Notes under the pieces: model-generated
Databases searched by the model: none
Told to the model about the DNA's origin: nothing
What the model saw: only the letters and a program-made list of their open reading frames with translations
From: Candidatus Thalassarchaeum sp.
Lineage (GTDB): Archaea; Thermoplasmatota; Poseidoniia; Poseidoniales; Thalassarchaeaceae
Direction: 5' to 3'
NCBI GenBank assembly: GCA_022451235.1
Contig: JAKUOA010000006.1
Location: forward strand, 44,413-108,412
Length of the DNA: 64,000 nucleotides
Position numbers and translations under genes: made by a program
In this document: positions 13,101-39,873 of the stretch, in pieces
How positions within the stretch are numbered: the stretch's first letter is position 1
Layout of the letters: each line of letters begins with the position of its first letter

Positions 13101-14039
13101 GCGATAGAAGACTACGACATAACTGTAGAGAGAATCGCCGGACTCGTCGCCGACGGAAAACTCTGCAAGGAGAGGCATGCAATGTTGGTTAGTCTTGCAG
13201 AACAACTCGAAGACGAGAGAAAGACAAGACTTCTCGCCGTCTTCAATGAAGTCAACCAGAACTTCACTCGTGCCTACAAGTTGCTACAGCCTGGTGGAGA
13301 GGGTGAATTGCAACTTGAGAACACCAAGAATCCATTTGAGGGTGGACTCAGGATGGCTTGTATTCCTCCTGGTAAGAGTAAGAGAACTCGTCGAAGTTTC
13401 CTCTCCGGGGGAGAAAAGTCGATGGCGGCCCTGGCTTTCGTTTTCGCGATCCAAGATTACGAACCTAGCCCATTCTACTACTTTGACGAGGTTGACCAGA
13501 ACCTTGATCCATTCAACGCTGAGCGAATCGCTACTCTCTGTAGAATTCGTAGTACCCACGCTCAATTCATCATGGTGACTCTAAGAAAGGTCAGCCTTAC
13601 ACTTGCTGACCACCACATTGGAATTACCCATGCGGGAGATGGCCGCAGTCGTCGAATTACCGACTTCGACAGAGCAGCTGCAATCGAACTTGGAGAAGAA
13701 TTCGAGGCCGAGCAAGAGGCACTGAAAGAAGCACAAAGTGCCAAGGAAGGAATGGGCGACTTGCCAAGCGCTGAGACCATGCCAAAGGTGCCTGAACCAA
13801 TGGATCGTCCATTGAGCCTAGGCGGCCTTGCCGATAGGGCTGGCGTTGAAGTGTCCGATGATGCTGAAGAAGAGGACTTAGACCCAAGTGAATCAACCAT
13901 GTCTTCACTGAAGGAAAGAACTGACGAATGGAGTGAAGATATCGCAGAGAAGGAAGCAGCCATTCCTCAACAGGAAGAGGAAGAAGAGCAGGTTGACAGC
14001 GAAGCAGCAATCGAGCAGGAGTTGGAGAGAGAAGAATGA
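10110..14039 (+). CDS. smc: Chromosome segregation protein SMC (condensin), with an unusual acidic C-terminal extension of about 150 aa
   Basis: It has the Walker A motif FTAITGPNGSGKSNSGDAIQFVLG. Long coiled coils flank a central hinge. The C-terminal head carries LSGGEKSMAALAFVFA (signature) and YYFDEVD (Walker B). ScpA and ScpB follow directly. Confidence 0.95.
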   Translation: MHLLRIEVENFKSFGGEITIPFDEGFTAITGPNGSGKSNSGDAIQFVLGTRSTKVMRADNVGDLIFNGGKRGKPARHMSVTLVFANKPELGGRRRLRIDEDEASFTRSVRLNRKNQPISSYKIGERSVTATEMRRTLAEAGLHGDGYNIVLQGDVTNLATMTDWKRRGVLEEVAGVTAYDSEIRSANNQRKVVENDIETIELFESDQKTRLKKLEKEREQALKYRDLKEQLDQARIILAQAKYRNRVEEIRMLNEDHGKYQEKSNKVRESVRSNESRLLQLEEELVNVSRELEDMATGESKAVMDEIRTLEIELETSRDRIGDQNRASEDATDEIEFFQADLESAEAAIQQLVDEIEAAKQSVTDADNALDEAEQNESEARKAIESGDKHSRDLNRALGLANEELSEVHDKMAEARLESDRAEQAARIASDNLADLEEQYEVVSLERDDLELTGEGLQEEKPVEDRESLAVKLTQLQKQEVALRGDRDSAEEQLRNANRSLDRARAAQEARASKPGSAVTLRALSKLRQSGEIRGILGSLGELTSPKDDSHEEALAFALGGGINSIVVSDDEVAASCIKWLGANGGGRATFLPLNKISASRAQGRALMVARNPGIIGFAHDLLDYDEEIETAVRFACRNTLIVQSMDVARRNMGGVRMVTLDGSIVEATGAMTGGSSAKGTRPSFGGAGAAGAGMENLESAVNRANLRYSTVEAALKEIRDNMNNLRNQIHGLDDSDHSVKVRNWKADVKIAQKQVDDISKKVVDARKEYERLESASQNATAAAVESEKEHTAAVDARRLAAEALQNHTPDHLSQILRSAQDTRTEAERTKLRAESDIVTGGEKLKVLEDRKKDLARSVERQNEIITEATKTIEKLQNSIQKAEESLKELKLQASQFNEEHQILSQRKDEIVDERASLRAHVEQMQTQRETIKARLEGLVESIRNKEETLVELQSDLAENQIELPDLEIQLPTVAEAEKGVQGLDRRLGQLGDVNMLAIEDYDITVERIAGLVADGKLCKERHAMLVSLAEQLEDERKTRLLAVFNEVNQNFTRAYKLLQPGGEGELQLENTKNPFEGGLRMACIPPGKSKRTRRSFLSGGEKSMAALAFVFAIQDYEPSPFYYFDEVDQNLDPFNAERIATLCRIRSTHAQFIMVTLRKVSLTLADHHIGITHAGDGRSRRITDFDRAAAIELGEEFEAEQEALKEAQSAKEGMGDLPSAETMPKVPEPMDRPLSLGGLADRAGVEVSDDAEEEDLDPSESTMSSLKERTDEWSEDIAEKEAAIPQQEEEEEQVDSEAAIEQELEREE

Positions 14040-15043
14040 CAGTCTTCGATGCCACTGCAATGAGGGACGATATCGTCGAAAGGCTATTGCAAGGCGAGGA
14101 AGACCTTGAAACCAGCCGTTATCTAGACCGATTGGTAGAGCTAGCTAGTTTAGAAGAAGCGGAACATCAATTCCTAATCGAACCATTTGATCGCTCGGTA
14201 GCATTGGTATTCCAATTATTCAGATCAAAGGACTTAGATCCCTGGGACGTCGATCTTACAAGCTTCCTAGAGATGTTTGAGGCGCGAATCAAAACTACTG
14301 ACAATATCGATTTACCAACCTGTGGTCGACTTATCCGAATGGCTTGGCAGATTCTAAGAGGTCAATCATCCACACTTATCGAGAGACAAGACCGAGCATG
14401 GGATGAACACGAGGAAGAATTCCTTGACTTTGATGTAAGTGGCTGGGAAACAGAATTCACTGAGGATGATTACAACTTCTCTGTAGGAGTTATGACAGGG
14501 GCGGCGGACAATGTACTCCCCTCGATGTTCGAAGGTAGAATTCATCGAGAGGAAAGCCGTCCTGTAACTCTCGGAGAATTACTAATGGGATTACAGAGCG
14601 CTAAACAAATCTCTGAGGATTTGAAACTCAGAGAACAAATCGCCAAAGAGAGGAGAGAAGCTCATGCAAAGGCAAGGGCTAGATTTTCCGGGAGTCTTCA
14701 CATCGAGGATTTGGAAGGAGATCTTCGACGAACATGGAATGCCCTTAGAGACCGGTCTGATGAAGGCGATATGGCGGTCGACCTGAAGGACATTACAACC
14801 TACCTTAGGGACAAATCACTGGAAGGTGGGTTGGAGTTCGATGAAGCGGAGGCCGAAGCACAGGTTACTGCCTTGGTCTCAGCACTATTCCTGACTCACA
14901 GAGGTTATGCAGACTTAACTCAGAAATCAGGCCGTGATGGATTGATTTCCATCAAGGATTTACACCCCGATTACAATGATTTTGATGTGCTAACAGAGAA
15001 AATTAACCCAAAGCCAGAGATGGAGGTGGAAGTAGATGTCTGA
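14036..15043 (+). CDS. scpA: Segregation and condensation protein A (kleisin)
   Basis: It overlaps the smc stop (ATGA). The N-terminal pattern FLIEPFDRSVALVFQLFRSKDLDPWDVDLTSF matches ScpA. ScpB follows. Confidence 0.8.
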   Translation: MTVFDATAMRDDIVERLLQGEEDLETSRYLDRLVELASLEEAEHQFLIEPFDRSVALVFQLFRSKDLDPWDVDLTSFLEMFEARIKTTDNIDLPTCGRLIRMAWQILRGQSSTLIERQDRAWDEHEEEFLDFDVSGWETEFTEDDYNFSVGVMTGAADNVLPSMFEGRIHREESRPVTLGELLMGLQSAKQISEDLKLREQIAKERREAHAKARARFSGSLHIEDLEGDLRRTWNALRDRSDEGDMAVDLKDITTYLRDKSLEGGLEFDEAEAEAQVTALVSALFLTHRGYADLTQKSGRDGLISIKDLHPDYNDFDVLTEKINPKPEMEVEVDV

Positions 15044-15668
15044 TTCTGTCGAATTATCCACTATTCTTGAAGCTATTTTGTTCAGTGCCGGTCGCTCCAT
15101 GACGGTTGAAGAATTGATGGAGCAAACTGGTAAAACTCGTACAGAGGTTTCCGGCGCTTTGGAGAACTTACGTGCTACAATCAAGCGCCGTAGAGACTCT
15201 GCTTTGCAATTAACCGAAGTTGCGGGCCGATGGATTTTCGAAGTTAGACCCACACTTTCCTCTCATCTACCAGAGTCGGTTAGACCGGATGTTCCAGCTA
15301 GATTGCTACCTGCGGCCGCACTAATCGCTTACCATCAGCCTATGAAGCAAGCGCAACTGGTCGATATGATTGGACCTAAGGCCTATGATAGGGTCAGGGA
15401 ATTAGCCGGATTAGGATTCATCGATAGACGCAGGGATGGGTTGACTCGTCGATTAACAACAACTCGAAGATTTGCAGAATACTTCGGTTGCCCCGATGTC
15501 GAATATCAAAAGGTACGCCAATGGTTCAGGGCAGAAGCCGGAAAGGCTGGACTTACCAGTGCACAGTTGGCTGCATCACTTTCTGATGAACAGATGACTA
15601 TCGAAGAGTTCTCTGAAGCACCATCCGAAGAGGCGCTAGCGATGGAAGCGGCTCAAGGCGACGAGTGA
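15036..15668 (+). CDS. scpB: Segregation and condensation protein B
   Basis: It has the motif LSTILEAILFSAGRSMTVEEL, characteristic of ScpB. It is 210 aa and has tandem winged-helix character. Confidence 0.85.
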   Translation: MSDSVELSTILEAILFSAGRSMTVEELMEQTGKTRTEVSGALENLRATIKRRRDSALQLTEVAGRWIFEVRPTLSSHLPESVRPDVPARLLPAAALIAYHQPMKQAQLVDMIGPKAYDRVRELAGLGFIDRRRDGLTRRLTTTRRFAEYFGCPDVEYQKVRQWFRAEAGKAGLTSAQLAASLSDEQMTIEEFSEAPSEEALAMEAAQGDE

Positions 15669-16964: not shown

Positions 16965-17331
16965 TGTTTCACCAAACCGTGCGACAACCTTCCGGTTCTA
17001 AGCACTTCGTGGTGACTAATCCCAAATTGCCTATTTTAGACTCAGATGAGGCCCAAGCCAAGAATGCTGATAATCGCCTTCTAATCGGGGCAAAATCAAA
17101 CCGAATAGGTTCATTTCTAGTCTCAATAAAGCGTTAATTTAGCCATTAACGCATTGTTAACGTATTTAGAAAGCGTTAGTAAAGCGTTAATATTTATCGC
17201 TACTATTCAAATTACTGCAAGCCTACTAAACTTTTTATCTATCTGAAAAAACCCAATAATACGTTAATTTCGCATCATTGATGCGTGAGAATACGTGAAT
17301 ATTATGTACCCCTAGGCTCACGTGTGCGATA
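16965..17331. promoter_or_regulatory. AT-rich divergent intergenic region dense in GCGTTAAT / ATTAACGC repeats and other short palindromes. Candidate origin-like or operator cluster.
   Basis: GCGTTAAT-ttagcc-ATTAACGC is a perfect inverted repeat at 17131-17152. Tandem AAAGCGTTA(G/A) repeats lie at 17170-17191. TTAACG is at 17157. ACGTTAAT is at 17260. CGCATCAtTGATGCG is a palindrome at 17270-17284. There is a CGTGA direct repeat and a CACGTG. A TATA-like aatattat lies at 17298-17305. Confidence 0.6.
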
Positions 17332-19287
17332 ATGGCTGAAGGGCCCGCATCGGTACTCGATTTGCCTCCATTACGAGGCAACCCCTTCGATTTACGTCCT
17401 ATCGAAGCAAATCGCGCAGAGTATCTAGTGGGGCGGGATCGATTGCTGGCGGAATGTCGCGAGCACCTAATTTCCCAAACTCCACGAATGCTACTATTGG
17501 TGGGGGATCGTGGATCGGGTAGAACGTCATTCCTCAACGCCCTTGCCTCAACAACATCTCGCCGCCCGTTCATAGGACAATTCTGGCCAGAAGACGATGA
17601 CCCTGTTCAGGGGATAATCCATGAGTTATCTGTATATCTCGGCGGCTTCGATATTCCACCATCTATCCAACAGGCCTCTGACAAGATGGTTGAGATTCTA
17701 GACAAAGAGACAGGAACTTTGCCTCTAGTCGCACTGGATTATCCTGCTAATGTAGATTTGAACCATATGCTATCTCGATTAGCACCTTTACTACAGAGGC
17801 TTCGAGCACTTATCGTGGTCGCAGTTACCCCCTCTCAATTGGCTGGGTTAGATGAGGGGGTGTTGGATATTTTCGACGACCCTCATCATTTACGGAATTT
17901 AGATGAAAAACAAATTCAGATTCTTAGCAATCGTAGAATCTCTCGCGCCGCCAATCAAAAGTGGAATATCAGGGCGAGTCTTCTAACTGCAATTCACCAA
18001 CATACAGATGGTAATCCGCGTAGGATAATTCGCCTATTGAGGGACTTAATCGATGAGCGACATAATCCAGTCGACGGGGGCGTCTTAGATCGGTTAACTA
18101 CCTGGAGAGCTCCACCAGTTCAATCGGAACCCGAAATATTCGAAGAAGAGGAGATAGAATCCGAGATACAAGAACCTACTGAAGAGTTCGAAGAAGTAGA
18201 AATAGAGTCAGAAGATGAAATTTCCCAAATAGATGATTTTGAACTAGAAGAAGAAGAACCCGATGATCTTTGGGATGATGATGACGACGAGGAAGAGTCA
18301 TGGAACGATGAATTCGAGGCACCTGATGAAATTTGGACTACTCCTGAGGAGCCAGAGTCACTAGAAGTTGAAGAGGAAAGATTCCATCAAGCAGAGCAAA
18401 TCCCTGAACCTGAACCTAGCGAAGTGTACCAGAGAGCTGATGATGAGTCTGGATTCTATTTCGTTGAAGAAGGAACAGAGCCGCCTGAATTGCCCGAATC
18501 TAGGAAACCTAAGGGCAATTTTGGACGCTTACTAGGTCGCACACTACAAGCCAATGATAGGATGCCAACAACAGGCGACGATACACCAATTCAAGTCGCT
18601 GAACCTCACAAGAGTTTGGTGCCAAGAACTCCGGTAAAGGAAATGCCTCCCGAAAGCGTAGAGGATGAACAATCGACTGCAAGAATCGATACATCGGTAG
18701 AGTCTGGTATAGAAGAGTCCGTTTTCCATGACGACCAGTCAGTTTGGATGGTTGATTCAGATTCCAAATCTACCTTGCCCAACAATCCTAGGGTATTCGA
18801 ACCAATAGCACCAGAGCCAGAGCCAGTTGTCGAAGAAATTGATACTGAATGGTTCGTCGATGACGCACCTGTAGAAGATGAATTCGAACCAATTCCTGAG
18901 CCTGTTTTTGAGCCGGAACCCCCCCAAGTTAGTATCCCATCAATTCCAACCACACCACCACCAACACCTGTACAAGTCCCGGTCCAAGTTCCAGTTTCAT
19001 TAGGTCCGACATGGGAACCAGATTTACCATTCAATCCCATCGTTTTGCAAACACTGACCGAGGCCGAGAGAATGATTGTCGAGGCCTCGTCGATGCGCGA
19101 AGTCTCTCCCTCGGATAATGAATTACAAGCCCGTTTAGAGGTCGGTCGTTCCCGTCTTTCGCAGATATACAATGGAATGCGACGCAAGGGTCTTCTGTCG
19201 GTAAGAAAGCAAGGTAGAACTCGATACTTCAAACTCAGTGAGGCTGCAAATCAGCACTTGCGTGGGGCGCCACAGGAGGCTGCATAA
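17332..19287 (+). CDS. Orc1/Cdc6-family AAA+ / winged-helix protein with degenerate Walker A and Walker B and a long acidic, Pro-rich disordered insert
   Basis: The N-terminus (NPFDLRPIEANRAEYLVGRDRLLAECREHL ... LLLVGDRGSGRTSFLNAL) parallels the canonical Cdc6 in this same window (PLSYDWVPPSLIGRDEEL ... AVVMGPVGSGKTVLTRRF). Walker A has R in place of K. The Walker B position reads LVALDY. Sensor-like segments read ALIVVAVTPSQ and GNPRRIIRLLRDLI (cf. Cdc6 GDARMAIELLEAAI). About 300 aa of D/E-rich then P-rich low complexity follow. The C-terminus is winged-helix-like (LSQIYNGMRRKGLLSVRKQGRTRYFKLSE). Confidence 0.55.
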   Translation: MAEGPASVLDLPPLRGNPFDLRPIEANRAEYLVGRDRLLAECREHLISQTPRMLLLVGDRGSGRTSFLNALASTTSRRPFIGQFWPEDDDPVQGIIHELSVYLGGFDIPPSIQQASDKMVEILDKETGTLPLVALDYPANVDLNHMLSRLAPLLQRLRALIVVAVTPSQLAGLDEGVLDIFDDPHHLRNLDEKQIQILSNRRISRAANQKWNIRASLLTAIHQHTDGNPRRIIRLLRDLIDERHNPVDGGVLDRLTTWRAPPVQSEPEIFEEEEIESEIQEPTEEFEEVEIESEDEISQIDDFELEEEEPDDLWDDDDDEEESWNDEFEAPDEIWTTPEEPESLEVEEERFHQAEQIPEPEPSEVYQRADDESGFYFVEEGTEPPELPESRKPKGNFGRLLGRTLQANDRMPTTGDDTPIQVAEPHKSLVPRTPVKEMPPESVEDEQSTARIDTSVESGIEESVFHDDQSVWMVDSDSKSTLPNNPRVFEPIAPEPEPVVEEIDTEWFVDDAPVEDEFEPIPEPVFEPEPPQVSIPSIPTTPPPTPVQVPVQVPVSLGPTWEPDLPFNPIVLQTLTEAERMIVEASSMREVSPSDNELQARLEVGRSRLSQIYNGMRRKGLLSVRKQGRTRYFKLSEAANQHLRGAPQEAA

Positions 19288-19583
19288 TGTCAGACGAAGG
19301 TTCTACGGTAACGAAAGAAAAAGTCGAGAAGTATCTCGAATTAACAGCAGAAGCACGAGGAAAAGCATCACCGATTGCAGAGTCTGAAGAAGATGTAGCC
19401 AGACTCGATTCAATGATGAGAATGTGTGATGATTACCAAGCAGACGCCAAGCATTTCCTGGAGAAGGGAGATTTGGTTCGAGCCTTTGGAGCGATCAATT
19501 ACGCACATGCTTGGATTGATGCTGCGGTTAGGATTGGCTTGATGGACGGACATGGTGATGATCGCCTCTTCACCCTTCCATGA
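19287..19583 (+). CDS. Small conserved archaeal protein, possibly DUF357-like
   Basis: Its start overlaps the upstream stop (taATG), indicating coupling. The 98-aa protein is acidic then helical, with the motif AINYAHAWIDAAVRIGL. This motif is reminiscent of the archaeal DUF357 family. That is from memory and unverified. Confidence 0.45.
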   Translation: MSDEGSTVTKEKVEKYLELTAEARGKASPIAESEEDVARLDSMMRMCDDYQADAKHFLEKGDLVRAFGAINYAHAWIDAAVRIGLMDGHGDDRLFTLP

Positions 19584-19614: not shown

Positions 19615-20511
19615 GTGAATACAATGTCTGATTGTCTCGATGATTTTCCCAATCAATTAGAACCAAGTTTTTCTTGTTTCCAAGACTCTATGTCTGCAGG
19701 ACCTGCCTCAGGGATTCTAATTTTGATACTCGGAATTCCTTTGATTGGAATAGTTAAGAGATATTTACGAAGGTTGCTAGATAAAACCGACTTTGATGAA
19801 GGACTGGAAAATTTTCTTTTCCGAGTTGCAAATGTCGTACTATGGGCGGTTGTTATCCTAACCGCAGCAAATGAATTCGGAATAAATGTCACAGGTTTGG
19901 TTGTCGGTTTAGGGTTTGTAGGATTAGCAGTAGCCTTTGCGGCACAAGATACAGTAGAGAATGTAATTGCTGGTATTTTCATCATAATTGACAGACCATT
20001 CAGAGAGGGGGAGAGAATTCTATTGCCGAAGAGTCTAGGTGGGACTTATTCAAAATGGGGTGATGTTAGTTACATTGGTTTGAGGACCACCAGAGTAAGA
20101 TCAACAGATGGAGTCTTACTTACCGTTCCAAACAAGATTCTAACAAAAGATGCAGTTGCAAATTTCAGTCACAGCTCGGATATGGAACTCAGGGTAAGAA
20201 TCAGACTTGGACTTACTGCAACTTGGGCGAACGTCACAAAGGCGGAGGAGATTGTACAAGATATCGCTGATAATCATCCAGACATCGTTAGCAAACCAAA
20301 ACCACCAGAGGTTGTTTTGAGAGGATTCGGAGACCAAGAAATAGTCATGGAGATTCGATATTATGTGGACCATGCAAAGAAAATGAGGCCATCTAAATCA
20401 TTCTTTGTTACTGAGATATTGAGAAGATTCGAGGAAAATGGAGTGACCTTAGCCTTCCCGGTTCGAGTCAATATGAATAGTGATGTGAATCTAGAAGATC
20501 TTGGATTCTAG
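19615..20511 (+). CDS. mscS: Small-conductance mechanosensitive channel (MscS family)
   Basis: It has N-terminal TM helices followed by the MscS signature region AFAAQDTVENVIAGIFIIIDRPFREGERI and a C-terminal beta domain. Confidence 0.85.
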   Translation: MNTMSDCLDDFPNQLEPSFSCFQDSMSAGPASGILILILGIPLIGIVKRYLRRLLDKTDFDEGLENFLFRVANVVLWAVVILTAANEFGINVTGLVVGLGFVGLAVAFAAQDTVENVIAGIFIIIDRPFREGERILLPKSLGGTYSKWGDVSYIGLRTTRVRSTDGVLLTVPNKILTKDAVANFSHSSDMELRVRIRLGLTATWANVTKAEEIVQDIADNHPDIVSKPKPPEVVLRGFGDQEIVMEIRYYVDHAKKMRPSKSFFVTEILRRFEENGVTLAFPVRVNMNSDVNLEDLGF

Positions 20512-22166: not shown

Positions 22167-22652
22167 TCACTCCTCTTCGTCAGAGGGCGTCTCGGTAGCG
22201 GCCTCTTCCTCGAGACCAAAAATCACTGGTAGTGAGCGCTTTCCTGCCTCAACGACCTTCAGATTGATTTGACGTGTATCCTGACTGATGACATTGCCTC
22301 GAAGGTTTCTTCTTCGGCGAATCCCGTCATACTTGTAGACGTATTCTTGGGCGTTCTTCTTCACGTATTTCTTCCCCTTGTATCCAACTCCGGGCGATAC
22401 GAGAACCGACTTTACTCCTCCACCATCTAGGTCAGGGCGCATTGGTCGGCCTGTGACATCTGAGCCACCGGTGATTTGCAACTTGTATCCAGAAAGTGTT
22501 TGATCACCATCTCCAACGAACATCCCATCGACGGAATCCCCGATTTTCTTACCCAAGAAATGGTTGTAATTTGCACCTGTGATATCCACAGCATATGCTC
22601 GATGGTCGACTGCTCCATTAACCACCGCCTTGAACGCCTGTTCTCCTGCCAT
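22167..22652 (-). CDS. rps6e: Ribosomal protein S6e. The listed ORF extends to 22709, but the likely start is the internal Met (MAGEQAFKAVV).
   Basis: It contains FKAVVNGAVD...GYKLQITGGSDVTGRPMRPDLDGGGVKSVLVSPGVGYKGKKYVKK, a typical archaeal S6e. It lies upstream of aIF2-gamma. Confidence 0.9.
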   Translation of the reverse strand: MAGEQAFKAVVNGAVDHRAYAVDITGANYNHFLGKKIGDSVDGMFVGDGDQTLSGYKLQITGGSDVTGRPMRPDLDGGGVKSVLVSPGVGYKGKKYVKKNAQEYVYKYDGIRRRRNLRGNVISQDTRQINLKVVEAGKRSLPVIFGLEEEAATETPSDEEE

Positions 22653-22721: not shown

Positions 22722-23897
22722 TTAGCCTCTCAAAAATTCTCTCTCAATTCTGCTTTCGATGGTTGCTGGTGCAGTATTGTTCATTGTGATATGTTGAGTT
22801 CTTCCTCTTCCAACGTTGGTATTTGCTGCCCTAGTTTCGATTAGTCCTTCGGTTTCCAACGTCTTCAGATGCTTCCAGAAAGTAGTGTAACTTCGCGGTT
22901 TTACCTCATATTCTTCACAGACTAGTAAGTAGAGCTTGTGAGCATCTCCGCTCGAGACGTATTCAGCCTTCTTCAAACGTCTACAAATACCTAGCAAAGA
23001 CAATTTTTGGTGTTGTGATAAATTGTCAACCGAACTCGGCTCCAGTGATGCCTTTCTCAAGGTACTAGGTCGCACATCATCAGGTAGAACTTCACCACGA
23101 CCCTCTTTCTCGGTTCGGCGGATGGCCGCTTCCAGTAGTTCAATCGCCATCCGCGCATCTCCTGATTCAGCAGCGAATTGACCAATTTTAGTTAGAGTTT
23201 CATCGGCTACCGACCCAGTTCGACAGGCAACCTCTACCCTTTGGCTAGCGATACCTGTCAGAGTCTCCGCATTGTAGGGTTGCATCTCGACGATATTTGA
23301 TTGCCCCAAGCGTGAGATAATCGCTGGCTCAAAGAGCTTCATCAAAGCTAAATTCTGACTAACAAGAATCATCGAAATCGTTCCTTGGTTTTCTTTTCCT
23401 TCATCGATTCTCAATAATTTGTAGATTAGATCCGACTGATCACGATTTACCAAAATATCAGCCTCGTCCAAAATCAACAGAAGATGACTATCGTGTGTAA
23501 TCAGATTTCTTCGAATAGATTGGATGATTTCACTTGGACTAAATCCTCTCTCCGGATGTCGTTCGTCGAGGCTGAGTGCAATCTGTTGCAATACCTGTGG
23601 ACCGGTTGGATGATTACGACAGTTTACGTGAGTTATCACGGTTTTTCTTCTTCCTTCGAGATGACGTTGAATATCTTCTGCAAAGCGACGTGTCAGAACA
23701 GTCTTTCCTGAGCCAACCGGACCCATTACGACCGCTTGGCAACTGGTTTCATGATTCTCAATTTGCGAAAATATGGCAGCCATATCGCCTAATTCTTCGT
23801 CTCTACCTATCAGAGATGGCGGAACCCAGTCGTACGAAAGAGGGGCCTTATCCAGCAGGACTTTGCCTGCTCCGATGCGGTCGAGGTATCCTGCCAT
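22722..23897 (-). CDS. cdc6: Orc1/Cdc6 replication initiator (canonical)
   Basis: It has the Walker A motif VMGPVGSGKTVLTRRF, the Walker B motif LILDEAD, the sensor 2 motif GDARMAIELLEAA, and a C-terminal winged helix. Confidence 0.9.
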   Translation of the reverse strand: MAGYLDRIGAGKVLLDKAPLSYDWVPPSLIGRDEELGDMAAIFSQIENHETSCQAVVMGPVGSGKTVLTRRFAEDIQRHLEGRRKTVITHVNCRNHPTGPQVLQQIALSLDERHPERGFSPSEIIQSIRRNLITHDSHLLLILDEADILVNRDQSDLIYKLLRIDEGKENQGTISMILVSQNLALMKLFEPAIISRLGQSNIVEMQPYNAETLTGIASQRVEVACRTGSVADETLTKIGQFAAESGDARMAIELLEAAIRRTEKEGRGEVLPDDVRPSTLRKASLEPSSVDNLSQHQKLSLLGICRRLKKAEYVSSGDAHKLYLLVCEEYEVKPRSYTTFWKHLKTLETEGLIETRAANTNVGRGRTQHITMNNTAPATIESRIEREFLRG

Positions 23898-26390: not shown

Positions 26391-27332
26391 TTAAGCAGTT
26401 CTCAATGCCTCACTTTCACGCTGAACCACTCTAACACCAATAACAATTAGAATAAATCCGAGTAGAAGAGTCCATCCTATATTCTCGTCTAGTAAGATAA
26501 CGCCCCCCAGTACCCCGAAAACTGGCATCAAGAAGATGTAGGAGGAGGCAGCGGTTGCACCGAGTTTCTCAACTCCAATAGCAAACCAATAGTAAGCCAA
26601 AACTGTAGATATGGCAGCGAGATAAAAGATCGCATACCAATCGGTCAGGGTCGGCTCGGGGATTCCATATTGCCAAGTTTCCCAAGCCGCTAATGGCGTT
26701 AGTAAAACCGTTCCAATGAGAGAATACCATACCACAATTTCCAATGTTGTCGCTTTTTGCTCACTATTTCTTTGTTCCATCATTCGCTTGGTATTATTCG
26801 TCGTCATCGCCCAATTTAGTGAAGCCAATAAAATCATGAAGTCTCCAAGAATTCTATCTTCAAATGGGATATCTGTATTGGGGCTCCATCCGGTAACTAC
26901 CCCCACTCCAATGAAGCCACAGAATAGACCAACGAACATCTTGCGAGAAATTTTTTGGCCTAACATTGGAGCTGCCAATAGTACAGTAAAAATCGGATTG
27001 AATGTGATTATGAGAGAAGCATCACCAGCAGCAGTGAATCGCATACCATTCATGAAAAATATCTGATAACCCAGAACGCCAGTTAACGCAATCAGCGTTA
27101 GTGTTCTCCAAGTTTTTCGACCACTTGGGAGCCAATTGACTTCATATCCTTTCAGAGCACGGCCAGCAAACCAAGCATAGAACAAGACCATCGTTAGGAC
27201 ATACCTAAGCCAAGCACCAGTCATTGGAGGCAATCCCAATGCTAGGATTCTACCCACTGCCCAGGCCATTCCCCAAGAGAACACAACTAGGATCATCAGT
27301 CCGTGAACTCGCCATTGATTCCCGAAACTCAT
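26391..27332 (-). CDS. DMT-superfamily permease (EamA/RhaT-like, 10 TM)
   Basis: It shows the two-fold repeated EamA pattern of hydrophobic helices. It is 313 aa. Segments include GYQIFFMNGMRFTAAGDASLIITFNPIFT. Confidence 0.8.
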   Translation of the reverse strand: MSFGNQWRVHGLMILVVFSWGMAWAVGRILALGLPPMTGAWLRYVLTMVLFYAWFAGRALKGYEVNWLPSGRKTWRTLTLIALTGVLGYQIFFMNGMRFTAAGDASLIITFNPIFTVLLAAPMLGQKISRKMFVGLFCGFIGVGVVTGWSPNTDIPFEDRILGDFMILLASLNWAMTTNNTKRMMEQRNSEQKATTLEIVVWYSLIGTVLLTPLAAWETWQYGIPEPTLTDWYAIFYLAAISTVLAYYWFAIGVEKLGATAASSYIFLMPVFGVLGGVILLDENIGWTLLLGFILIVIGVRVVQRESEALRTA

Positions 27333-27786: not shown

Positions 27787-27869
27787 ATTTTAGACACCTT
27801 GTCAATAATGCCTTCTGGCTTATATGAAGGCGGTGCCGGAGATTGATTTAAACCTAAGATGGCTAACCG

Positions 27870-28097
27870 TTGTTTATGGAAGAACAAACCTCAGACAAAG
27901 ACTGGACTACGCTGTTGATTCTATCTATCCTATTGGGTGGATTGGGAGTTGACCGATTTTATGCAGGGCACATCGGCCTCGGTGTACTGAAGCTACTTAC
28001 TGTAGGCGGCTGCGGAATTTGGGCGCTTATCGACATCATCTTGGTTGCAACTGGAAAGTTCTCAGACGCTGATGGTCTACCGATTGTCAACCAGTGA
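27870..28097 (+). CDS. TM2-domain protein
   Basis: It contains LSILLGGLGVDRFYAGHIGLGVLKLLTVGGCGIWALIDIIL, the TM2 signature (GxDRFY ... GGxGIWxxID). Confidence 0.75.
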   Translation: MFMEEQTSDKDWTTLLILSILLGGLGVDRFYAGHIGLGVLKLLTVGGCGIWALIDIILVATGKFSDADGLPIVNQ

Positions 28098-28123
28098 AAG
28101 CTGCTTACTCTGAATAACCAAGT

Positions 28124-28140
28124 CCTTCCCATAGGGAAGG
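28124..28140 (+). terminator. Hairpin CCTTCCC-ATA-GGGAAGG 27 nt after the TM2 gene stop. Possible terminator.
   Basis: It is a perfect 7-bp stem with a 3-nt loop. It lies between the TM2 stop and the mutS promoter motif. Confidence 0.35.
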
Positions 28141-28201
28141 TTAGCACAGGATTGCTTATGCACCCTAGGCTCACAGACACAGCCCACGCGCAGCGTAAGC
28201 A

Positions 28202-30913
28202 ATGGAGGAGTCTGATATGGCGAAGCGATCAATGCTTGACCAATTCGCTGAGATTAAGGCGCAGCACCCCGATACTGTTCTATTTTTCAGAATGGGAGAT
28301 TTCTACGAGATGTTCTATGATGATGCAGTGTTAGCATCGGAAGTACTCGGAATCACCCTGACTAGTCGCGACAAGAGCGCGGATGAACCGGTTCCGATGG
28401 CAGGTGTTCCTTGGCATTCTGTTGAATCCTATCTACAGGGTATGTTGCGAGCCGGGCACAAGGTGACCTTGTGCGAGCAAGAAGATGAATTACGACCGGG
28501 TTCCAAAATTCTTGAAAGAGTAGTTACCCGTGTTTATACTCCTGGCTCGCTTTACGAGGAGGACCTGATTGGAGAAGATGGCTCAAGTTTACTTGCAGGT
28601 CTAATTTCACGAGGAGATGGCATCGGTCTAGCAATCCTTGACTCTTCAACAGGTAGAGCATGGTTGCAAGAGCATTCTGGACCCGGTCGCTATGAGCGGG
28701 TGCGTGATGAATTACAGAGATGGTCTCCAAGTGAGTTAGTTCTTGGGCGCCGCGAAGCTGAGAGCGAGGAGTCTCGAGCATTGTTATCCTCGCTAGATAA
28801 GGTTACTATGAGCGTTCACGAGGGTGGTAAGGAGCAACATCTTCAGGTAGTCAAAGACCACCTAGAATTAGTCGACTTAGGTTCTGTTGACTTAGATCGT
28901 AGACCCTTAGCAATGGAGGCTTGTGGACTCACTGCTGGATATCTTACAAAGTTACATCTCGTCGATGTAGTGCCTCTTCGCGAGGTACATTTCGATGCCG
29001 ATGACGGCCATCTTGTACTCGACCAAACAACACTTCGTAATCTGGAGTTAACACATACATTAGCCGGAGAGAAGGACGGCTCACTCTTACAAGCCATTGA
29101 TTGTACTCGTACTTGGATGGGGCGAAGACAACTCAAAGAATGGATTCTACGCCCACTAACCGATTCTGAGAAAATTGCCTCAAGACAGTCCGCTGTTGCG
29201 AGTCTAATTCGCGCACCTCGTCGCCTGGACAATATTCGTGAGTCGCTTAAGTCGATGCGCGACTTAGAACGTCTCTCTACTCGCTTGGCCTATGGTAGGG
29301 CCAACGCGAGAGACTTAGTTGCAGTCTCAGATTGTTTGGAGAGGATGCCACGACTCCAGGGATTACTTTCTGAAGGAGATTCTGAATTACTGCATCAATG
29401 TGCAGAGGGATTGTCAGATCTTGATCCTCTAATGCATCATATTGCATCCAGGGTTGTTGAAGATCCTCCGATGACGATTCGAGATGGCGGTATTTTCCAA
29501 GACGGCGTAAATGAGCAACTGGATGACCTACGTCAGAAGGCCGGAGAGGGTACAGATTGGCTAAAGGGATTTGAATCTAGGGAGCGTGAAAGACTCGATA
29601 TTCCAAGCCTCAAAGTCAAGCAGAATCGTCAGTTTGGATTCTTCATTGAAGTCACTAAGTCTCATTTAGACAAGATTCCTGATGAGTACCGTCGAAGGCA
29701 AACAATGACCAATGCAGAGAGATTTACTACAGAGGAATTGAAGGAATGGGAAGAAGTCATTTTAACAGCAGATGATAGATCCAAGGCCCTAGAACACGAA
29801 TTATTTCTTGGACTTCGTAAGGAGGTTGCATCAAATGCATCTAAACTTAGTGAATTAGGACGAAAGGTTGCCTCTGCTGACGTTCTGTCAGCATTCGCCA
29901 AACACGCTAGAAAGCACTCTTGGAATCGACCAGATATCAAACATGATTCGACAATGGAAATTGTAGCAGGCCGTCATCCAGTATTGGAGGGTGATGGGCG
30001 TTTTGTACCGAATGACATAAGCTTTGATAATCGTAGAAAATTCCTCCTCTTAACTGGCCCAAATATGGGTGGTAAGTCGACATATCTTCGACAAACAGCA
30101 CTAATTACAATCCTTGCTCAGGCCGGATCATTTGTACCTGCTGAAAAGGCAAGAATTGGTATTGTTGACAGAGTATTCACTAGAGTCGGCGCTCACGATG
30201 ATTTGCGACGAGGTCGTTCGACATTCATGATGGAAATGATTGAGGTTGCTCATATTCTACGAAGAGCGACACCTCGAAGTCTGATACTACTCGATGAGGT
30301 CGGACGAGGTACCTCAACTTTCGATGGTCTAGCAATCGCTTGGTCGGTTACTGAAGACATCTCCACCAGAGTTGCTGCAAGGACTCTGTTTGCCACTCAC
30401 TACCATCAGCTTGTTGGCTTGGCTAATGAGGTTGAAGGATTGGTAAATATCCATGTTCAGGTCGCTGACGTCAAGGGAGAAATTCGATTCTTACACACAG
30501 TCGCCGAAGGACCTTGTGACGATTCATATGGTGTACAAGTGGCGGCCTTGGCTGGCCTTCCTAGTGGGGTTGTTGAAAGAGCACGCGACTTGCTTATATT
30601 CCTTGAAGGTCAAGCTCAAGGTGCTCGAGCAGGTAGCGAGGGAACACCCGATACCAGGGAATCGGGGCAGTCTAGTATATACGGTTGGATGCTGGGTAAT
30701 GGAGACAAACCACCGGCTACCAATCAACTAATTTTGAATGAAGAACCGACTAAGGAAATAGTAGTCCAAGAAGACCCAGTATTGCGTGAAATAGCAGAGA
30801 GGCTAGAATCACTCGACCCAGACACACTTACTCCTCGAGAGGCATTAGAGGCACTCTATGCAATGAGAGCAGCACTGAATAACACACTTGATGGAAAACA
30901 TTTGGAGGAGTAA
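28202..30913 (+). CDS. mutS: DNA mismatch repair protein MutS (MutS1 type, bacterial-like). The start is possibly at 28217 (MAKRSMLDQF).
   Basis: It has the N-terminal mismatch-binding motif FFRMGDFYEMFYDDA (Phe-x-Glu), the Walker A motif LLTGPNMGGKSTYLRQ, and the motif STFMMEM. It is 903 aa. Confidence 0.95.
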   Translation: MEESDMAKRSMLDQFAEIKAQHPDTVLFFRMGDFYEMFYDDAVLASEVLGITLTSRDKSADEPVPMAGVPWHSVESYLQGMLRAGHKVTLCEQEDELRPGSKILERVVTRVYTPGSLYEEDLIGEDGSSLLAGLISRGDGIGLAILDSSTGRAWLQEHSGPGRYERVRDELQRWSPSELVLGRREAESEESRALLSSLDKVTMSVHEGGKEQHLQVVKDHLELVDLGSVDLDRRPLAMEACGLTAGYLTKLHLVDVVPLREVHFDADDGHLVLDQTTLRNLELTHTLAGEKDGSLLQAIDCTRTWMGRRQLKEWILRPLTDSEKIASRQSAVASLIRAPRRLDNIRESLKSMRDLERLSTRLAYGRANARDLVAVSDCLERMPRLQGLLSEGDSELLHQCAEGLSDLDPLMHHIASRVVEDPPMTIRDGGIFQDGVNEQLDDLRQKAGEGTDWLKGFESRERERLDIPSLKVKQNRQFGFFIEVTKSHLDKIPDEYRRRQTMTNAERFTTEELKEWEEVILTADDRSKALEHELFLGLRKEVASNASKLSELGRKVASADVLSAFAKHARKHSWNRPDIKHDSTMEIVAGRHPVLEGDGRFVPNDISFDNRRKFLLLTGPNMGGKSTYLRQTALITILAQAGSFVPAEKARIGIVDRVFTRVGAHDDLRRGRSTFMMEMIEVAHILRRATPRSLILLDEVGRGTSTFDGLAIAWSVTEDISTRVAARTLFATHYHQLVGLANEVEGLVNIHVQVADVKGEIRFLHTVAEGPCDDSYGVQVAALAGLPSGVVERARDLLIFLEGQAQGARAGSEGTPDTRESGQSSIYGWMLGNGDKPPATNQLILNEEPTKEIVVQEDPVLREIAERLESLDPDTLTPREALEALYAMRAALNNTLDGKHLEE

Positions 30914-30915
30914 TT

Positions 30916-35021: not shown

Positions 35022-35108
35022 TGGCGCGGCAGGGGAGATTCGAACTCCCGAGGTGAAACACCACTGGATTAGCAATCCAGCGCAATGGCCAGGCTATGCG
35101 ACTGCCGC
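35022..35108 (-). tRNA. tRNA-Ser (anticodon GCU) with long variable arm. A CCA is encoded.
   Basis: The minus-strand read is GCGGCAG ... CTGGATTGCTAATCCAG (anticodon loop TTGCTAA gives GCU) ... a long variable arm ... GGGAGTTCGAATCTCCC (T-arm) ... CTGCCGC G CCA. The 7-bp acceptor stem pairs perfectly. Confidence 0.85.
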
Positions 35109-37851: not shown

Positions 37852-37860
37852 TTTTCCACC

Positions 37861-39873
<2,013 letters not shown>

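What the first reader, a model, noticed from the sequence alone, without database searches (positions are those of the whole stretch)
17332..19287. Orc1/Cdc6-family paralog with a crippled ATPase site and a 300-aa acidic, proline-rich disordered linker before the winged helix
Colinear similarity to the canonical Cdc6 in this same window places it in the Orc1/Cdc6 AAA+ family. The shared features are the pre-Walker-A LVGRD segment, Walker A, the sensor-1-like ALIVVAVTPSQ, and the sensor-2-like GNPRRIIRLLRDL (cf. GDARMAIELLEAA). Walker A reads GSGRTS, with Lys replaced by Arg. The Walker B position reads D-Y in place of D-E. ATP hydrolysis is therefore probably lost, while binding may be retained. 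Between the AAA+ core and a C-terminal winged-helix-like domain lies about 300 residues of extreme low complexity. It includes EEEIESEIQEPTEEFEEVEIESEDE and DDLWDDDDDEEESW with interspersed Trp, then PEPEP and TPPPTPVQVPVQVPV. I do not recall this architecture for archaeal Orc proteins. It could be an ATPase-dead initiator or regulator that recruits partners through the acidic tail. It sits beside the repeat-dense region and is translationally coupled to a small conserved ORF.
Basis: partly seen in the sequence, partly recalled or inferred. Interest (0 to 1): 0.75.

Follow-up and report, generated by a model that had tools for sequence, protein, structure and literature searches.

The report
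Degenerate AAA+–wHTH protein with cognate repeats
An unannotated protein found in every checked genome of the abundant marine archaea Poseidoniales joins a crippled Orc/Cdc6-like ATPase, a long acidic disordered linker and an ArsR-type DNA-binding domain, and it always sits beside a conserved array of RCGTTAA repeats that it most likely binds.

Summary
ORF 17332-19287 (651 aa) is real and lies on many independent contigs. It has Walker A GSGRTS (Lys->Arg) and Walker B D-Y. A 298-aa acidic linker (31% D/E, 14% Pro, net charge -78) is predicted disordered. The C-terminal winged helix is predicted with high confidence.

- no Orc1/Cdc6 model matches it;
- the arginine finger is absent;

It defines a small, unannotated family seen only in Poseidoniales-type genomes (about 100 clusters at 50% identity among 1.84 billion). 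Synteny is fixed: SMC-ScpB-HMGR | target-(X)-DUF357 | PIN-aIF2gamma-S6e-Cdc6.

New finding: the gene's upstream region carries about eight phased RCGTTAA sites. GCGTTAA is >700-fold enriched there and present in 77/77 loci, and the array is also seen in four distant lineages. The last site abuts a TATA-like element.

Best explanation: a hydrolysis-impaired switch protein that assembles on this array and autoregulates. An origin or centromere role is not excluded.

The parts
17128..17299 (.). Array of about eight RCGT(T/G)A(A/G) sites. Positions: 17131(+), 17146(-), 17157(-), 17173(+), 17184(+), then a ~70-bp AT-rich spacer, then 17261(+), 17283(+), 17293(+). Neighbouring sites are 10-11 bp apart.
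   Evidence: Five of the 12 RCGTTAA sites in the 64-kb window lie within 137 bp. GCGTTAA occurs 314 times in 77 homologous intergenic regions against 0.4 expected, and is present in 77/77 loci. The order, orientation and distance to the ATG are conserved. The array is also present in four distant lineages with locus GC 0.42-0.70. No Rfam family matches and there is no significant RNA fold.
17299..17309 (+). Conserved TATA-like element (A)ATATTATGTAC, about 25-33 nt upstream of the ATG. The last repeat (ACGTGAA, 17293-17299) abuts it at the position where a BRE would lie.
   Evidence: Consensus of 71 aligned upstream regions...GCGTGAA[T/C][A/G]TTA[T/A]G..., then ~22-27 nt to the start codon. 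Its role as a promoter element is inferred, not measured.
17332..19287 (+). Whole ORF, 651 aa; NCBI 'hypothetical protein MKZ68_02295 [Candidatus Thalassarchaeum sp.]'.
17359..17901 (+). N-terminal arm (LPPLRGNPFDLRPIE) plus the AAA+ alpha/beta base (aa 10-190). Two helices (91-104, 112-125) lie between beta2 and beta3, the position of the initiator-specific motif.
17503..17529 (+). Walker A / P-loop G58-DRGSG-R64-TS, with Arg in place of the canonical Lys.
   Evidence: Family counts: R 47, K 7. G58, G61, G63 and S66 are invariant.
17722..17742 (+). Walker B strand LPLVALD136-Y137, with no catalytic Glu.
   Evidence: Beta3 is 132-136 in the model. D136 is invariant and is followed by Y/F/H/L/V/A/I, never E.
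17905..18102 (+). AAA+ lid (aa 192-257), including the sensor-2-like G227-N-P-R230 and the conserved IR237xLRD.
18118..19011 (+). Acidic, Pro-rich disordered linker (aa 263-560).
   Evidence: 31% D/E, 14% Pro, net charge -78. pLDDT mostly below 50. In the family the linker is 147-669 aa and always acidic.
18514..18546 (+). Conserved linker island GNFGRLLGRTL (family consensus G.FGGL..R.R), within a predicted short helix at 398-410.
   Evidence: R403 is invariant and L400 nearly invariant. The helix has block-mean pLDDT 63-76. A second island is at W472 (nt 18745-18747), nearly invariant.
19012..19266 (+). C-terminal ArsR/SmtB-type winged helix-turn-helix (aa 561-645). The recognition helix is R606-S-R608-L-S610-Q611-I-Y-N614.
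19287..19583 (+). Downstream DUF357 gene; its start overlaps the target's stop by 1 nt (same operon).
   Evidence: PF04010, E 2.3e-19. It lies immediately downstream in 80/80 loci, with a gap of -4 to +21 nt. DUF357 is a universal archaeal single-copy marker (PMC12680538).

Best explanation
The gene encodes a lineage-specific, sequence-specific DNA-binding switch protein.

Shown here:
- It is an AAA+ base+lid module of the Orc/Cdc6-like kind.
- Its catalytic apparatus is degenerate: Walker A Lys->Arg, no Walker B Glu, no arginine finger.
- A 150-670-aa acidic disordered linker tethers it to an ArsR/SmtB-type winged helix.
- The gene always lies directly downstream of a conserved, helically phased array of RCGTTAA sites, and the last site abuts a TATA-like element.

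Inferred:
- The winged helix, probably as a dimer as in ArsR/SmtB proteins, recognises the RCGTTAA sites.
- The AAA+ module still binds nucleotide. The P-loop glycines, Ser/Thr and a basic residue are kept, and Arg and Lys interchange. It hydrolyses slowly or not at all. It acts as an oligomerisation and cooperativity switch that lines up several copies on sites spaced one helical turn apart.
- Occupancy of the promoter-proximal sites at the BRE/TATA position represses the target-(X)-DUF357 operon. The divergent HMG-CoA reductase gene may also be affected.
- The acidic linker acts as an intramolecular DNA mimic that sharpens specificity, and/or as a platform for partners through its conserved islands (G.FGGL..R.R helix, LW).
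For: - Degenerate catalytic site conserved across 54 representatives, with K/R interchange and invariant P-loop glycines and D136. The Arg-finger segment is replaced by F-D.
- ArsR/SmtB-type wHTH by profile and by fold. It is the most conserved segment, with invariant R606, R608, S610 and Q611.
- Array: GCGTTAA more than 700-fold enriched in 77/77 upstream regions. Layout and 10-11-bp phasing are conserved. It is present in all four distant lineages examined, including as an AT-rich island in a locus of 70% GC. There is no second cluster in the window.
- The promoter-proximal sites abut a conserved TATA-like element about 25-33 nt from the ATG.
- The nearest sequence outgroup is an AAA_16 ATPase fused directly to a MarR/ArsR HTH. 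The ATPase-plus-regulator-HTH logic therefore pre-exists.
- The gene is a chromosomal, syntenic core gene, found in 151 Poseidoniales species genomes with one strict pattern. It is not viral and matches no defence model.
Against: - No binding experiment exists. Synteny is so rigid that co-occurrence cannot separate this protein from other candidate binders of the array, such as the Cdc6 4-5 kb away or a MarR-like gene present in some lineages.
- The recognition helix and the motif core are both invariant, so no protein-DNA covariation test was possible.
- Eight sites reaching to -200 plus a large AAA+ module and a long linker are more than a simple autorepressor needs.
- Nucleotide binding is inferred from motif retention only. 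The sensor-2 Arg is not conserved family-wide.
- The TATA/BRE assignment is by position and conservation, not by a mapped transcription start.
Confidence: 0.5

Rival explanations
1. Origin- or centromere-type nucleoprotein complex. The array is part of the chromosomal replication origin or a partition/SMC-loading site. The protein is its dedicated binder: a lineage-specific initiator, an initiator accessory, or a centromere-binding protein encoded next to its site, as in archaeal replicator-initiator pairs or iteron-Rep plasmids. Autoregulation would then be secondary.
For: - The AAA+ domain is closest in fold to Cdc6/Orc and is joined to a DNA-binding winged helix.
- The gene lies directly beside a phased, bidirectional repeat array with an AT-rich ~65-70-bp spacer.
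- The intergenic region is the most AT-rich of those over 120 bp in the window (0.62), and the only one of those examined that carries repeats.
- The true Cdc6 is 4-5 kb away in fixed synteny and has only ~100 bp, without repeats, upstream of it.
- SMC-ScpB lie 1.6 kb upstream, and MutS/MutL and GyrA/B lie within 20 kb downstream.
- There is a precedent for lineage-specific non-Orc origin-binding factors in archaea (UBP/ucm; PMC12141716).
Against: - Gene orientation converges on the locus (9 of 11 genes to the left are on +; 23 of 36 to the right are on -). This is the opposite of the co-orientation expected around an origin (gene list).
- No strand-skew change is seen at 17.15 kb after correcting for gene orientation (|t| < 1.5).
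- The motif does not resemble known ORB or mini-ORB elements (my knowledge).
- The segment at the ISM position has no conserved basic residues, and the N-domain is net acidic.
- The spacer is not notably AT-rich in the high-GC lineage, and arrays are shorter in distant lineages.
Confidence: 0.2
2. The array is the operator or binding site of a different protein, such as Cdc6/Orc1 or another regulator of HMG-CoA reductase. The target's winged helix would then bind other DNA, or act as a global regulator or nucleoid protein whose adjacency to the array is only inherited synteny.
For: - The whole block from SMC to Cdc6 is syntenic in every lineage, so co-occurrence is not specific to this gene.
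- The distal site cluster lies between two divergent genes.
Against: - The proximal sites sit at the target's own promoter, not at that of HMGR.
- ArsR/SmtB-type regulators typically bind operators at their own promoters (my knowledge).
- The invariant recognition helix parallels the invariant motif core.
Confidence: 0.15
3. One reading: a bona fide Orc1/Cdc6 paralog that acts as an ATPase-dead replication initiator.
For: Fold-level and profile-level similarity to Cdc6; weak profile hit to Drosophila Cdc6 over the whole domain (7jgr_G, E 0.004); proximity to Cdc6.
Against: - It fails the family models.
- The winged helix is of another type.
- The Arg finger and Walker B Glu are absent.
- The nearest sequence outgroup is an AAA_16-MarR fusion, not an Orc.
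Confidence: 0.08
4. Artefact: a frameshift or mis-assembly joins two genes, an ATPase and a small HTH regulator.
For: None beyond the unusual linker. A 208-aa antisense ORF (18606-19232) exists, but it is typical of low-complexity coding sequence.
Against: - The identical 651-aa protein is on dozens of independent contigs from five sources.
- The architecture is conserved in 54 divergent representatives and in 85 loci.
- Conserved islands inside the linker are in frame.
Confidence: 0.01
5. A defence-system STAND/AAA NTPase (QatA-, BrxC- or PtuA-like).
Against: - It sits at a fixed position in a housekeeping block across all lineages examined.
- There are no partner defence genes and no viral copies.
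- All hits are far below any threshold.
Confidence: 0.02

Closest known systems
Archaeal Orc1/Cdc6 initiators (TIGR02928; Pfam AAA_22/AAA_16 + Cdc6_lid PF22703 + Cdc6_C PF09079)
   Same: AAA+ base+lid fold with two helices at the initiator-specific-motif position. The N-terminal '...P..LVGR' lead-in, Walker A, Walker B, sensor-1 and sensor-2 segments are colinear. A C-terminal winged-helix DNA-binding domain is present. The gene is encoded next to a repeat-bearing AT-rich intergenic region.
   Different: - No family model matches.
- Walker A has Arg instead of Lys; there is no Walker B Glu and no Arg finger.
- A 300-aa acidic disordered linker separates the lid from the winged helix; in Orc1/Cdc6 the winged helix follows the lid directly.
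- The winged helix is ArsR/SmtB-type.
- The repeat motif (RCGTTAA) is unlike ORB elements.
AAA_16 / ATPase_2 ATPases fused to a winged helix (e.g. P0209-type AAA_16-MarR proteins; archaeal PAB2304 2qen and SSO1545 2fna)
   Different: Those proteins keep the canonical GKT and have no long acidic linker. The AAA_16 score here is below the Pfam threshold (23.9 against 32.6 bits).
ArsR/SmtB-family winged-helix repressors (CzrA, SmtB, ArsR, BigR, HlyU; archaeal RosR)
   Same: Five-element alpha1-alpha2-alpha3-alphaR-beta-hairpin-alpha5 fold. The best sequence and fold matches for the C-domain are in this family. Binding sites lie at the gene's own promoter.
   Different: Here the domain is a C-terminal module of a 651-aa multidomain protein. 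The score is below the curated family cut-off (NF033788 22.5 against 55 bits). No metal or ligand site was identified. The array has ~8 sites, not a single operator.
Iteron-Rep plasmid replicons and archaeal replicator-initiator pairs (functional analogy only; from my knowledge)
   Same: A winged-helix protein is encoded next to direct repeats phased at about one helical turn, with sites of inverted orientation reaching its own promoter. This suggests a dual role of assembly and autorepression.
   Different: No homology to Rep WH1-WH2 proteins was tested or claimed. The locus is chromosomal and syntenic across the lineages examined, and no evidence of origin activity exists.
MuB / TnsC AAA+ DNA-binding ATPases
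   Different: They are active ATPases of transposons with no winged helix and no acidic linker. The target is a chromosomal core gene.

Membership tests
Orc1/Cdc6 (archaeal initiator) | Passes the curated family models (TIGR02928; Cdc6_lid PF22703; Cdc6_C PF09079) | tested here: not met
   No hit at E <= 1 for any of the three. The window's true Cdc6 scores 226.9 bits on TIGR02928, 51 on Cdc6_lid and 60 on Cdc6_C. Only 1 of 25 family C-domains touches Cdc6_C, at E 0.005.
Orc1/Cdc6 (archaeal initiator) | AAA+ base+lid fold of the initiator clade, with an extra helix between beta2 and beta3 (ISM position) | tested here: met
Orc1/Cdc6 (archaeal initiator) | Canonical Walker A lysine (GxxGxGK[ST]) | tested here: not met
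   R64 in this protein. The family has R in 47 and K in 7 of 54 representatives.
Orc1/Cdc6 (archaeal initiator) | Walker B hhhhDE with catalytic Glu | tested here: not met
   D136-Y137. The residue after the invariant Asp is never Glu in 54 representatives.
Orc1/Cdc6 (archaeal initiator) | Arginine finger (box VII, ...SR...) | tested here: not met
   Cdc6 'AIISRLG' aligns to 'GVLDIFD'. The family consensus there is F-D, with D182 nearly invariant in the 16-sequence alignment.
Orc1/Cdc6 (archaeal initiator) | Sensor-2 arginine in the lid (GDAR) | tested here: inconclusive
   G227-N-P-R230 aligns to GDAR in this protein. The Arg is not conserved across the family, whereas R237 is nearly invariant.
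Orc1/Cdc6 (archaeal initiator) | Cdc6-type winged-helix domain directly after the lid | tested here: not met
Orc1/Cdc6 (archaeal initiator) | Binds ORB elements and recruits MCM at an origin | not testable with these tools
   Needs biochemistry or marker-frequency data.
ArsR/SmtB winged-helix regulators | alpha1-alpha2-alpha3-alphaR-beta1-beta2-alpha5 fold | tested here: met
ArsR/SmtB winged-helix regulators | Passes the curated sequence models (NF033788 HTH_metalloreg; Pfam HTH_5/HTH_20) | tested here: not met
   NF033788 gives 22.5 bits against a cut-off of 55. There is no Pfam HTH_5 hit on the query C-domain, and MarR_2 hits in 5 of 25 members. It is a relative at superfamily level only.
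ArsR/SmtB winged-helix regulators | Homodimer through alpha1/alpha5; binds an inverted repeat at its own promoter | not testable with these tools
   Sites of both orientations, and GCGTTAACGC palindromes in some loci, are compatible with this. No binding data exist.
AAA_16 (PF13191) | Score at or above the Pfam gathering threshold | tested here: inconclusive
   23.9 bits against 32.6 for the query. Some family members carry precomputed PF13191 hits, mostly marked 'weak'.
STAND NTPases | NTPase followed by a helical/WH arm and C-terminal sensor repeats (TPR, WD40, LRR) | tested here: not met

The most novel reading that the evidence does not exclude
The RCGTTAA array and this protein could form a Poseidoniales-specific replicator-initiator or centromere-like module. 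A hydrolysis-dead, Orc-like AAA+ protein would assemble on phased sites between smc-scpAB and cdc6. There it would mark the chromosomal origin or load the SMC or MCM machinery, recruiting partners through the conserved motifs of its acidic linker. This would be an archaeal counterpart of ParB-parS or DnaA-box logic, built from an Orc-like ATPase and an ArsR-type winged helix.
Probability: 0.2. Interest if true: 0.85.

Novelty: new variant of a known kind. Interest (0 to 1): 0.6.

Why it matters
Poseidoniales (Marine Group II) are among the most abundant planktonic archaea and remain uncultured. Their chromosome biology and gene regulation are known only by inference from sequence.

Here a 'hypothetical protein' conserved across the lineages examined is paired with a precisely defined, conserved cis-element. 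That turns an anonymous gene into a biochemically testable protein-DNA system:
- a recombinant C-domain and a 200-bp fragment are enough for a first test;
- the system is a natural example of an AAA+ module that keeps its P-loop but has lost Lys, Glu and the Arg finger, which bears on how pseudo-ATPases work as switches;
- it is also an archaeal DNA-binding protein with a long acidic disordered linker that carries conserved short motifs.

If the array proves to be origin- or centromere-associated, it would identify a lineage-specific chromosome-maintenance factor of the kind called for after the discovery of UBP/ucm in Sulfolobus (PMC12141716).

Tried and rejected
- Pairwise BLASTP against the window's Cdc6: not significant. 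A profile-profile comparison replaced it.
- Alignment A1 (47 sequences) was too diverse for the genome scan (error). The 16-sequence A2 worked, but it returned only the closer relatives. Distant lineages were reached through exact-protein look-ups.
- Strand-skew test for an origin at 17.15 kb or 28 kb, using third-codon-position GC/AT skew regressed on gene orientation and side: uninformative, |t| < 1.5.
- The 27787-28201 'intergenic' stretch as an alternative origin: it encodes a TM2-domain ORF and has no direct repeats and only two short inverted pairs.
Only 3 of 120 loci were this locus. The rest were unrelated or chance matches with no related winged helix nearby. The regulon-versus-single-site question stays open.
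- Protein-DNA covariation: impossible, because the recognition helix and the motif core are both invariant.
- Structured RNA in the upstream region: no Rfam family, fold z -1.46.
- Defence-system NTPase: no credible PADLOC hit.
- Viral or mobile origin: no relatives in IMG/VR.
- Literature searches found no description of this family or of a Poseidoniales origin.
- The label 'ScpA' for ORF 14036-15043 rests only on its position between SMC and ScpB; Pfam gives no hit.
Full report
**1. The observation**

ORF 17332-19287 (+) encodes 651 aa, as described. The window comes from a Marine Group II archaeon. The identical protein is 'hypothetical protein MKZ68_02295 [Candidatus Thalassarchaeum sp.]'. 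It is recorded on dozens of independent contigs up to 1.5 Mb from five sources, so a frameshift or assembly join is excluded.

- Walker A is G58-DRGSG-R64-TS.
- The Walker B strand ends in D136-Y137.
- Beta4 (160-165) is followed by T166.
- The lid carries G227-NPRR.

Residues 263-560 hold 92 Asp/Glu against 14 Lys/Arg (net charge -78) and 14% Pro. AlphaFold gives pLDDT below 50 over most of this stretch. Residues 10-250 and 560-645 are above 93.

The TAA stop overlaps the ATG of a DUF357 gene by one base.

**2. What family is it?**

Direct evidence for 'Orc1/Cdc6 paralog' is weak at sequence level.
- BLASTP against the window's own Cdc6 (22722-23897, -) is not significant.
- Pfam gives only sub-threshold AAA_16 (23.9 bits against a 32.6 cut-off) and nSTAND1.
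- TIGR02928, Cdc6_lid and Cdc6_C do not hit at E <= 1, although they hit the true Cdc6 strongly.

An exhaustive phmmer search with the N-domain against 1.84 billion cluster representatives found only 100 proteins. Nearly all full-length hits are 500-1012 aa with the same three-part architecture. The single outsider, P0209, is an AAA_16 ATPase fused directly to a MarR/ArsR-type HTH.

A strict-pattern scan of species-representative genomes returned 151 confirmed loci. All 80 listed are Poseidoniales/MGII-type MAGs or SAGs. No relative exists in the viral collection, and no defence model matches.

**3. Family-wide features**

- The P-loop glycines (G58, G61, G63) and S66 are invariant.
- The Walker A basic residue is Arg in 47 and Lys in 7 of 54 representatives. 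The Lys forms are scattered among subgroups.
- D136 is invariant and is never followed by Glu.
- The linker is always present (147-669 aa) and always acidic (12-32% D/E against 3-12% K/R).
- The linker is otherwise unconserved except for short islands: G.FGGL..R.R (query 395-405, R403 invariant; the predicted helix 398-410 lies here) and LW (W472).
- The C-terminal domain is the most conserved part: RE[IV]SPSD..LQ..L.VGR.RLSQI.N.L...G.L.VRK.GR.R. R606, R608, S610 and Q611 are invariant.

**4. Structure-based placement**

MuB and TnsC (both 14.7), RFC3 (14.0) and PAB2304 (13.7) follow closely.

The family profile aligns to a profile of the Cdc6 orthologs from the same genomes with probability 95.4% (E 2e-8, 211 columns). 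Walker A, Walker B, sensor 1 and sensor 2 are in register. The Cdc6 arginine-finger segment 'ISRLG' falls on the family's conserved 'F-D'. Two helices lie between beta2 and beta3, where the initiator-specific motif sits.

So the N-domain is an AAA+ module of the Orc/Cdc6-like kind. It has lost three catalytic elements (Lys, Glu, Arg finger) while keeping the phosphate-binding loop.

C-domain. A dedicated model (pLDDT 92.7) has alpha1-alpha2-alpha3-alphaR-beta-beta-alpha5 topology.
- By profile it matches BigR at 2.3e-5 and HlyU at 1.9e-4, against Cdc6 at 0.51.

Membership in Orc1/Cdc6 is therefore not met, although the protein resembles Orc1/Cdc6 in overall logic.

**5. Genomic context**

Across the 80 loci, tblastn with the window's neighbours gave:
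- DUF357 immediately downstream on the same strand: 80/80
- HMG-CoA reductase divergent upstream: 77
- PIN: 79
- aIF2gamma: 78
- S6e: 72
- Cdc6 on the opposite strand downstream: 69, median +4.3 kb
- ScpB, the ScpA-position ORF and SMC upstream, wherever the flank reached

Four distant lineages were also checked: a 70%-GC genome with a 3-Mb contig, MGIIa Poseidonia, the Lys-retaining subgroup, and a fourth clade. All show the same block. They carry one extra overlapping ORF ('X', 345-377 aa, no Pfam hit) between the target and DUF357. X is absent from this window and from the 80 closer loci.

The MscS gene at 19615-20511 is an insertion specific to this window's lineage (0/80). The target-DUF357 gap is -4 to +21 nt in 70 loci. 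DUF357 is itself a universal archaeal single-copy marker (PMC12680538), so its adjacency may partly reflect the conserved aIF2gamma neighbourhood.

The wider window also holds A-type ATPase subunits, Dph2, MutS-MutL and GyrA-GyrB. This is a region rich in chromosome-maintenance genes.

**6. The repeat array (the main new result)**

The 367-bp HMGR-target intergenic region is the most AT-rich of the nine intergenic regions over 120 bp in the window (0.62). None of the three others examined for repeats has any direct repeats. Five of the window's 12 RCGTTAA sites fall within 137 bp of it.

In the homologous regions of 77 loci, GCGTTAA occurs 314 times against 0.4 expected from the rest of the same loci. 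It is present in 77/77, most often four exact copies per locus.

The layout is conserved relative to the start codon:
- one forward site near -200;
- two reverse sites 11 bp apart near -185/-175;
- two forward sites 11 bp apart near -160/-150;
- a spacer of about 65 bp, AT-rich in the window and the closer loci;
- one forward site near -75;
- two RCGTGAA variants 10 bp apart near -50/-40;
- the last of these abuts a conserved (A)TATTATGTAC-like element about 25-33 nt before the ATG.

Some loci carry the perfect palindrome GCGTTAACGC. The array is also present in all four distant lineages, including as an AT-rich island inside a GC-rich intergenic region. It is almost absent from the remaining ~17 kb of each locus. 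It is not a known RNA and does not fold significantly.

**7. Mechanism**

Shown: the domain architecture, the degenerate site, the conserved array and its position at the promoter.

Inferred:
- The ArsR-type winged helix, whose recognition helix is invariant, binds the RCGTTAA core, which is also invariant.
- The AAA+ module binds nucleotide but hydrolyses poorly. It supplies cooperative, helically phased assembly.
- Occupancy of the BRE/TATA-adjacent sites autoregulates the target-(X)-DUF357 operon.
- The acidic linker acts as a DNA mimic and/or a partner platform.

This is the most parsimonious reading. ArsR/SmtB regulators typically bind at their own promoters (my knowledge), and the nearest sequence outgroup is an ATPase-HTH regulator-like fusion. 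I give it about 0.5.

**8. Rivals**

Origin or centromere-like role. The Orc-like fold, the gene-next-to-repeats arrangement, the AT-rich spacer, and the proximity to cdc6 and smc-scpAB keep this reading alive. The true Cdc6 has no repeat-bearing region of its own. I give it about 0.2. UBP/ucm in Sulfolobus is a precedent for lineage-specific origin factors (PMC12141716). Three points speak against it: gene orientation converges on the locus, no skew change is detectable in 64 kb, and the motif is unlike ORBs (my knowledge).

Another protein binds the array. Rigid synteny prevents excluding this (about 0.15).

The artefact and defence-system readings are rejected.

**9. Novelty and score**

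The kind is known: an ORC-like AAA+ ATPase joined to a winged-helix DNA binder. The variant appears undescribed in four respects:
- a natural Lys->Arg, Glu-less, finger-less site;
- a long acidic linker with conserved motifs;
- an ArsR-type winged helix;
- a dedicated conserved phased repeat array in a whole order of abundant marine archaea.

No Pfam or NCBIfam family covers it. Sources call it 'hypothetical' or 'ArsR family regulator'. Interest 0.6.

Noticed in passing
window 19615-20511 (+): An MscS-type mechanosensitive channel gene lies between DUF357 and the PIN gene in this window. It has no counterpart at that position in any of the 80 related loci, so it is a lineage-specific insertion into an otherwise rigid block.
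   Followed up: partly
L081:9823-10956, L082:9902-10954, L084:9845-10885, L085:9650-10687: In four distant lineages an extra ORF 'X' (345-377 aa, no Pfam hit, Trp/Gly-rich with a helical C-terminus) lies between the target and DUF357 and overlaps both. The L081 and L082 copies are 31% identical. It is absent from this window and from the 80 closer loci, so it was lost or relocated in this clade.
   Followed up: partly
L081:11248-11655 (-), L084:11166-11570 (-): A small MarR-like gene lies between DUF357 and the PIN gene in two of the distant lineages. It is another candidate DNA-binding protein in the block.
   Followed up: no
window 27083-27101: An isolated inverted pair TTAACGC-N5-GCGTTAG lies inside ORF 26391-27332 (-). 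It is the only other place in the window with two motif copies close together, and it may be chance.
   Followed up: partly
L117:3800-3960, L118:2445-2605, L165:535-720 (metagenome contigs): Unrelated contigs from other environments carry their own dense GCGTTAA/TTAACGC arrays of 6 sites. L117 and L118 have nearly identical architecture, and no related winged-helix gene lies nearby. They may belong to a different repeat-binding system or a mobile element.
   Followed up: partly
window 27870-28097 (+): A 75-aa TM2-domain ORF (PF05154, E 2e-18) occupies what looks like a 415-bp intergenic gap between divergent genes.
   Followed up: yes
window 13900-14039, 15600-15668, 22167-22200: Several unrelated proteins of this genome end in acidic tails: SMC '...QQEEEEEQVDSEAAIEQELEREE', ScpB '...EEALAMEAAQGDE', S6e '...EEEAATETPSDEEE'. 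Acidic low-complexity extensions may be a proteome-wide habit, which tempers how special the target's acidity is.
   Followed up: no
proteins P0001-P0120 (near-identical copies of the target): Copies at least 95% identical to the query vary in length from 650 to 665 aa. This points to frequent small indels, presumably in the low-complexity linker.
   Followed up: no
window 14036-15043 (+): The ORF that overlaps both SMC and ScpB, at the position expected for the kleisin ScpA, has no Pfam hit at E <= 0.001. The equivalent ORFs in L081-L085 also carry no Pfam family. This may be a divergent kleisin.
   Followed up: no
window 4890-7343 (+): An 817-aa ORF next to the A-type ATPase A/B subunit genes has no Pfam hit at E <= 1e-5.
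   Followed up: no
window 28202-32883 (+) and 35155-39831 (-): MutS-MutL and GyrA-GyrB pairs lie within 20 kb of the locus, and a tRNA lies at 35025-35108 (-).
   Followed up: no
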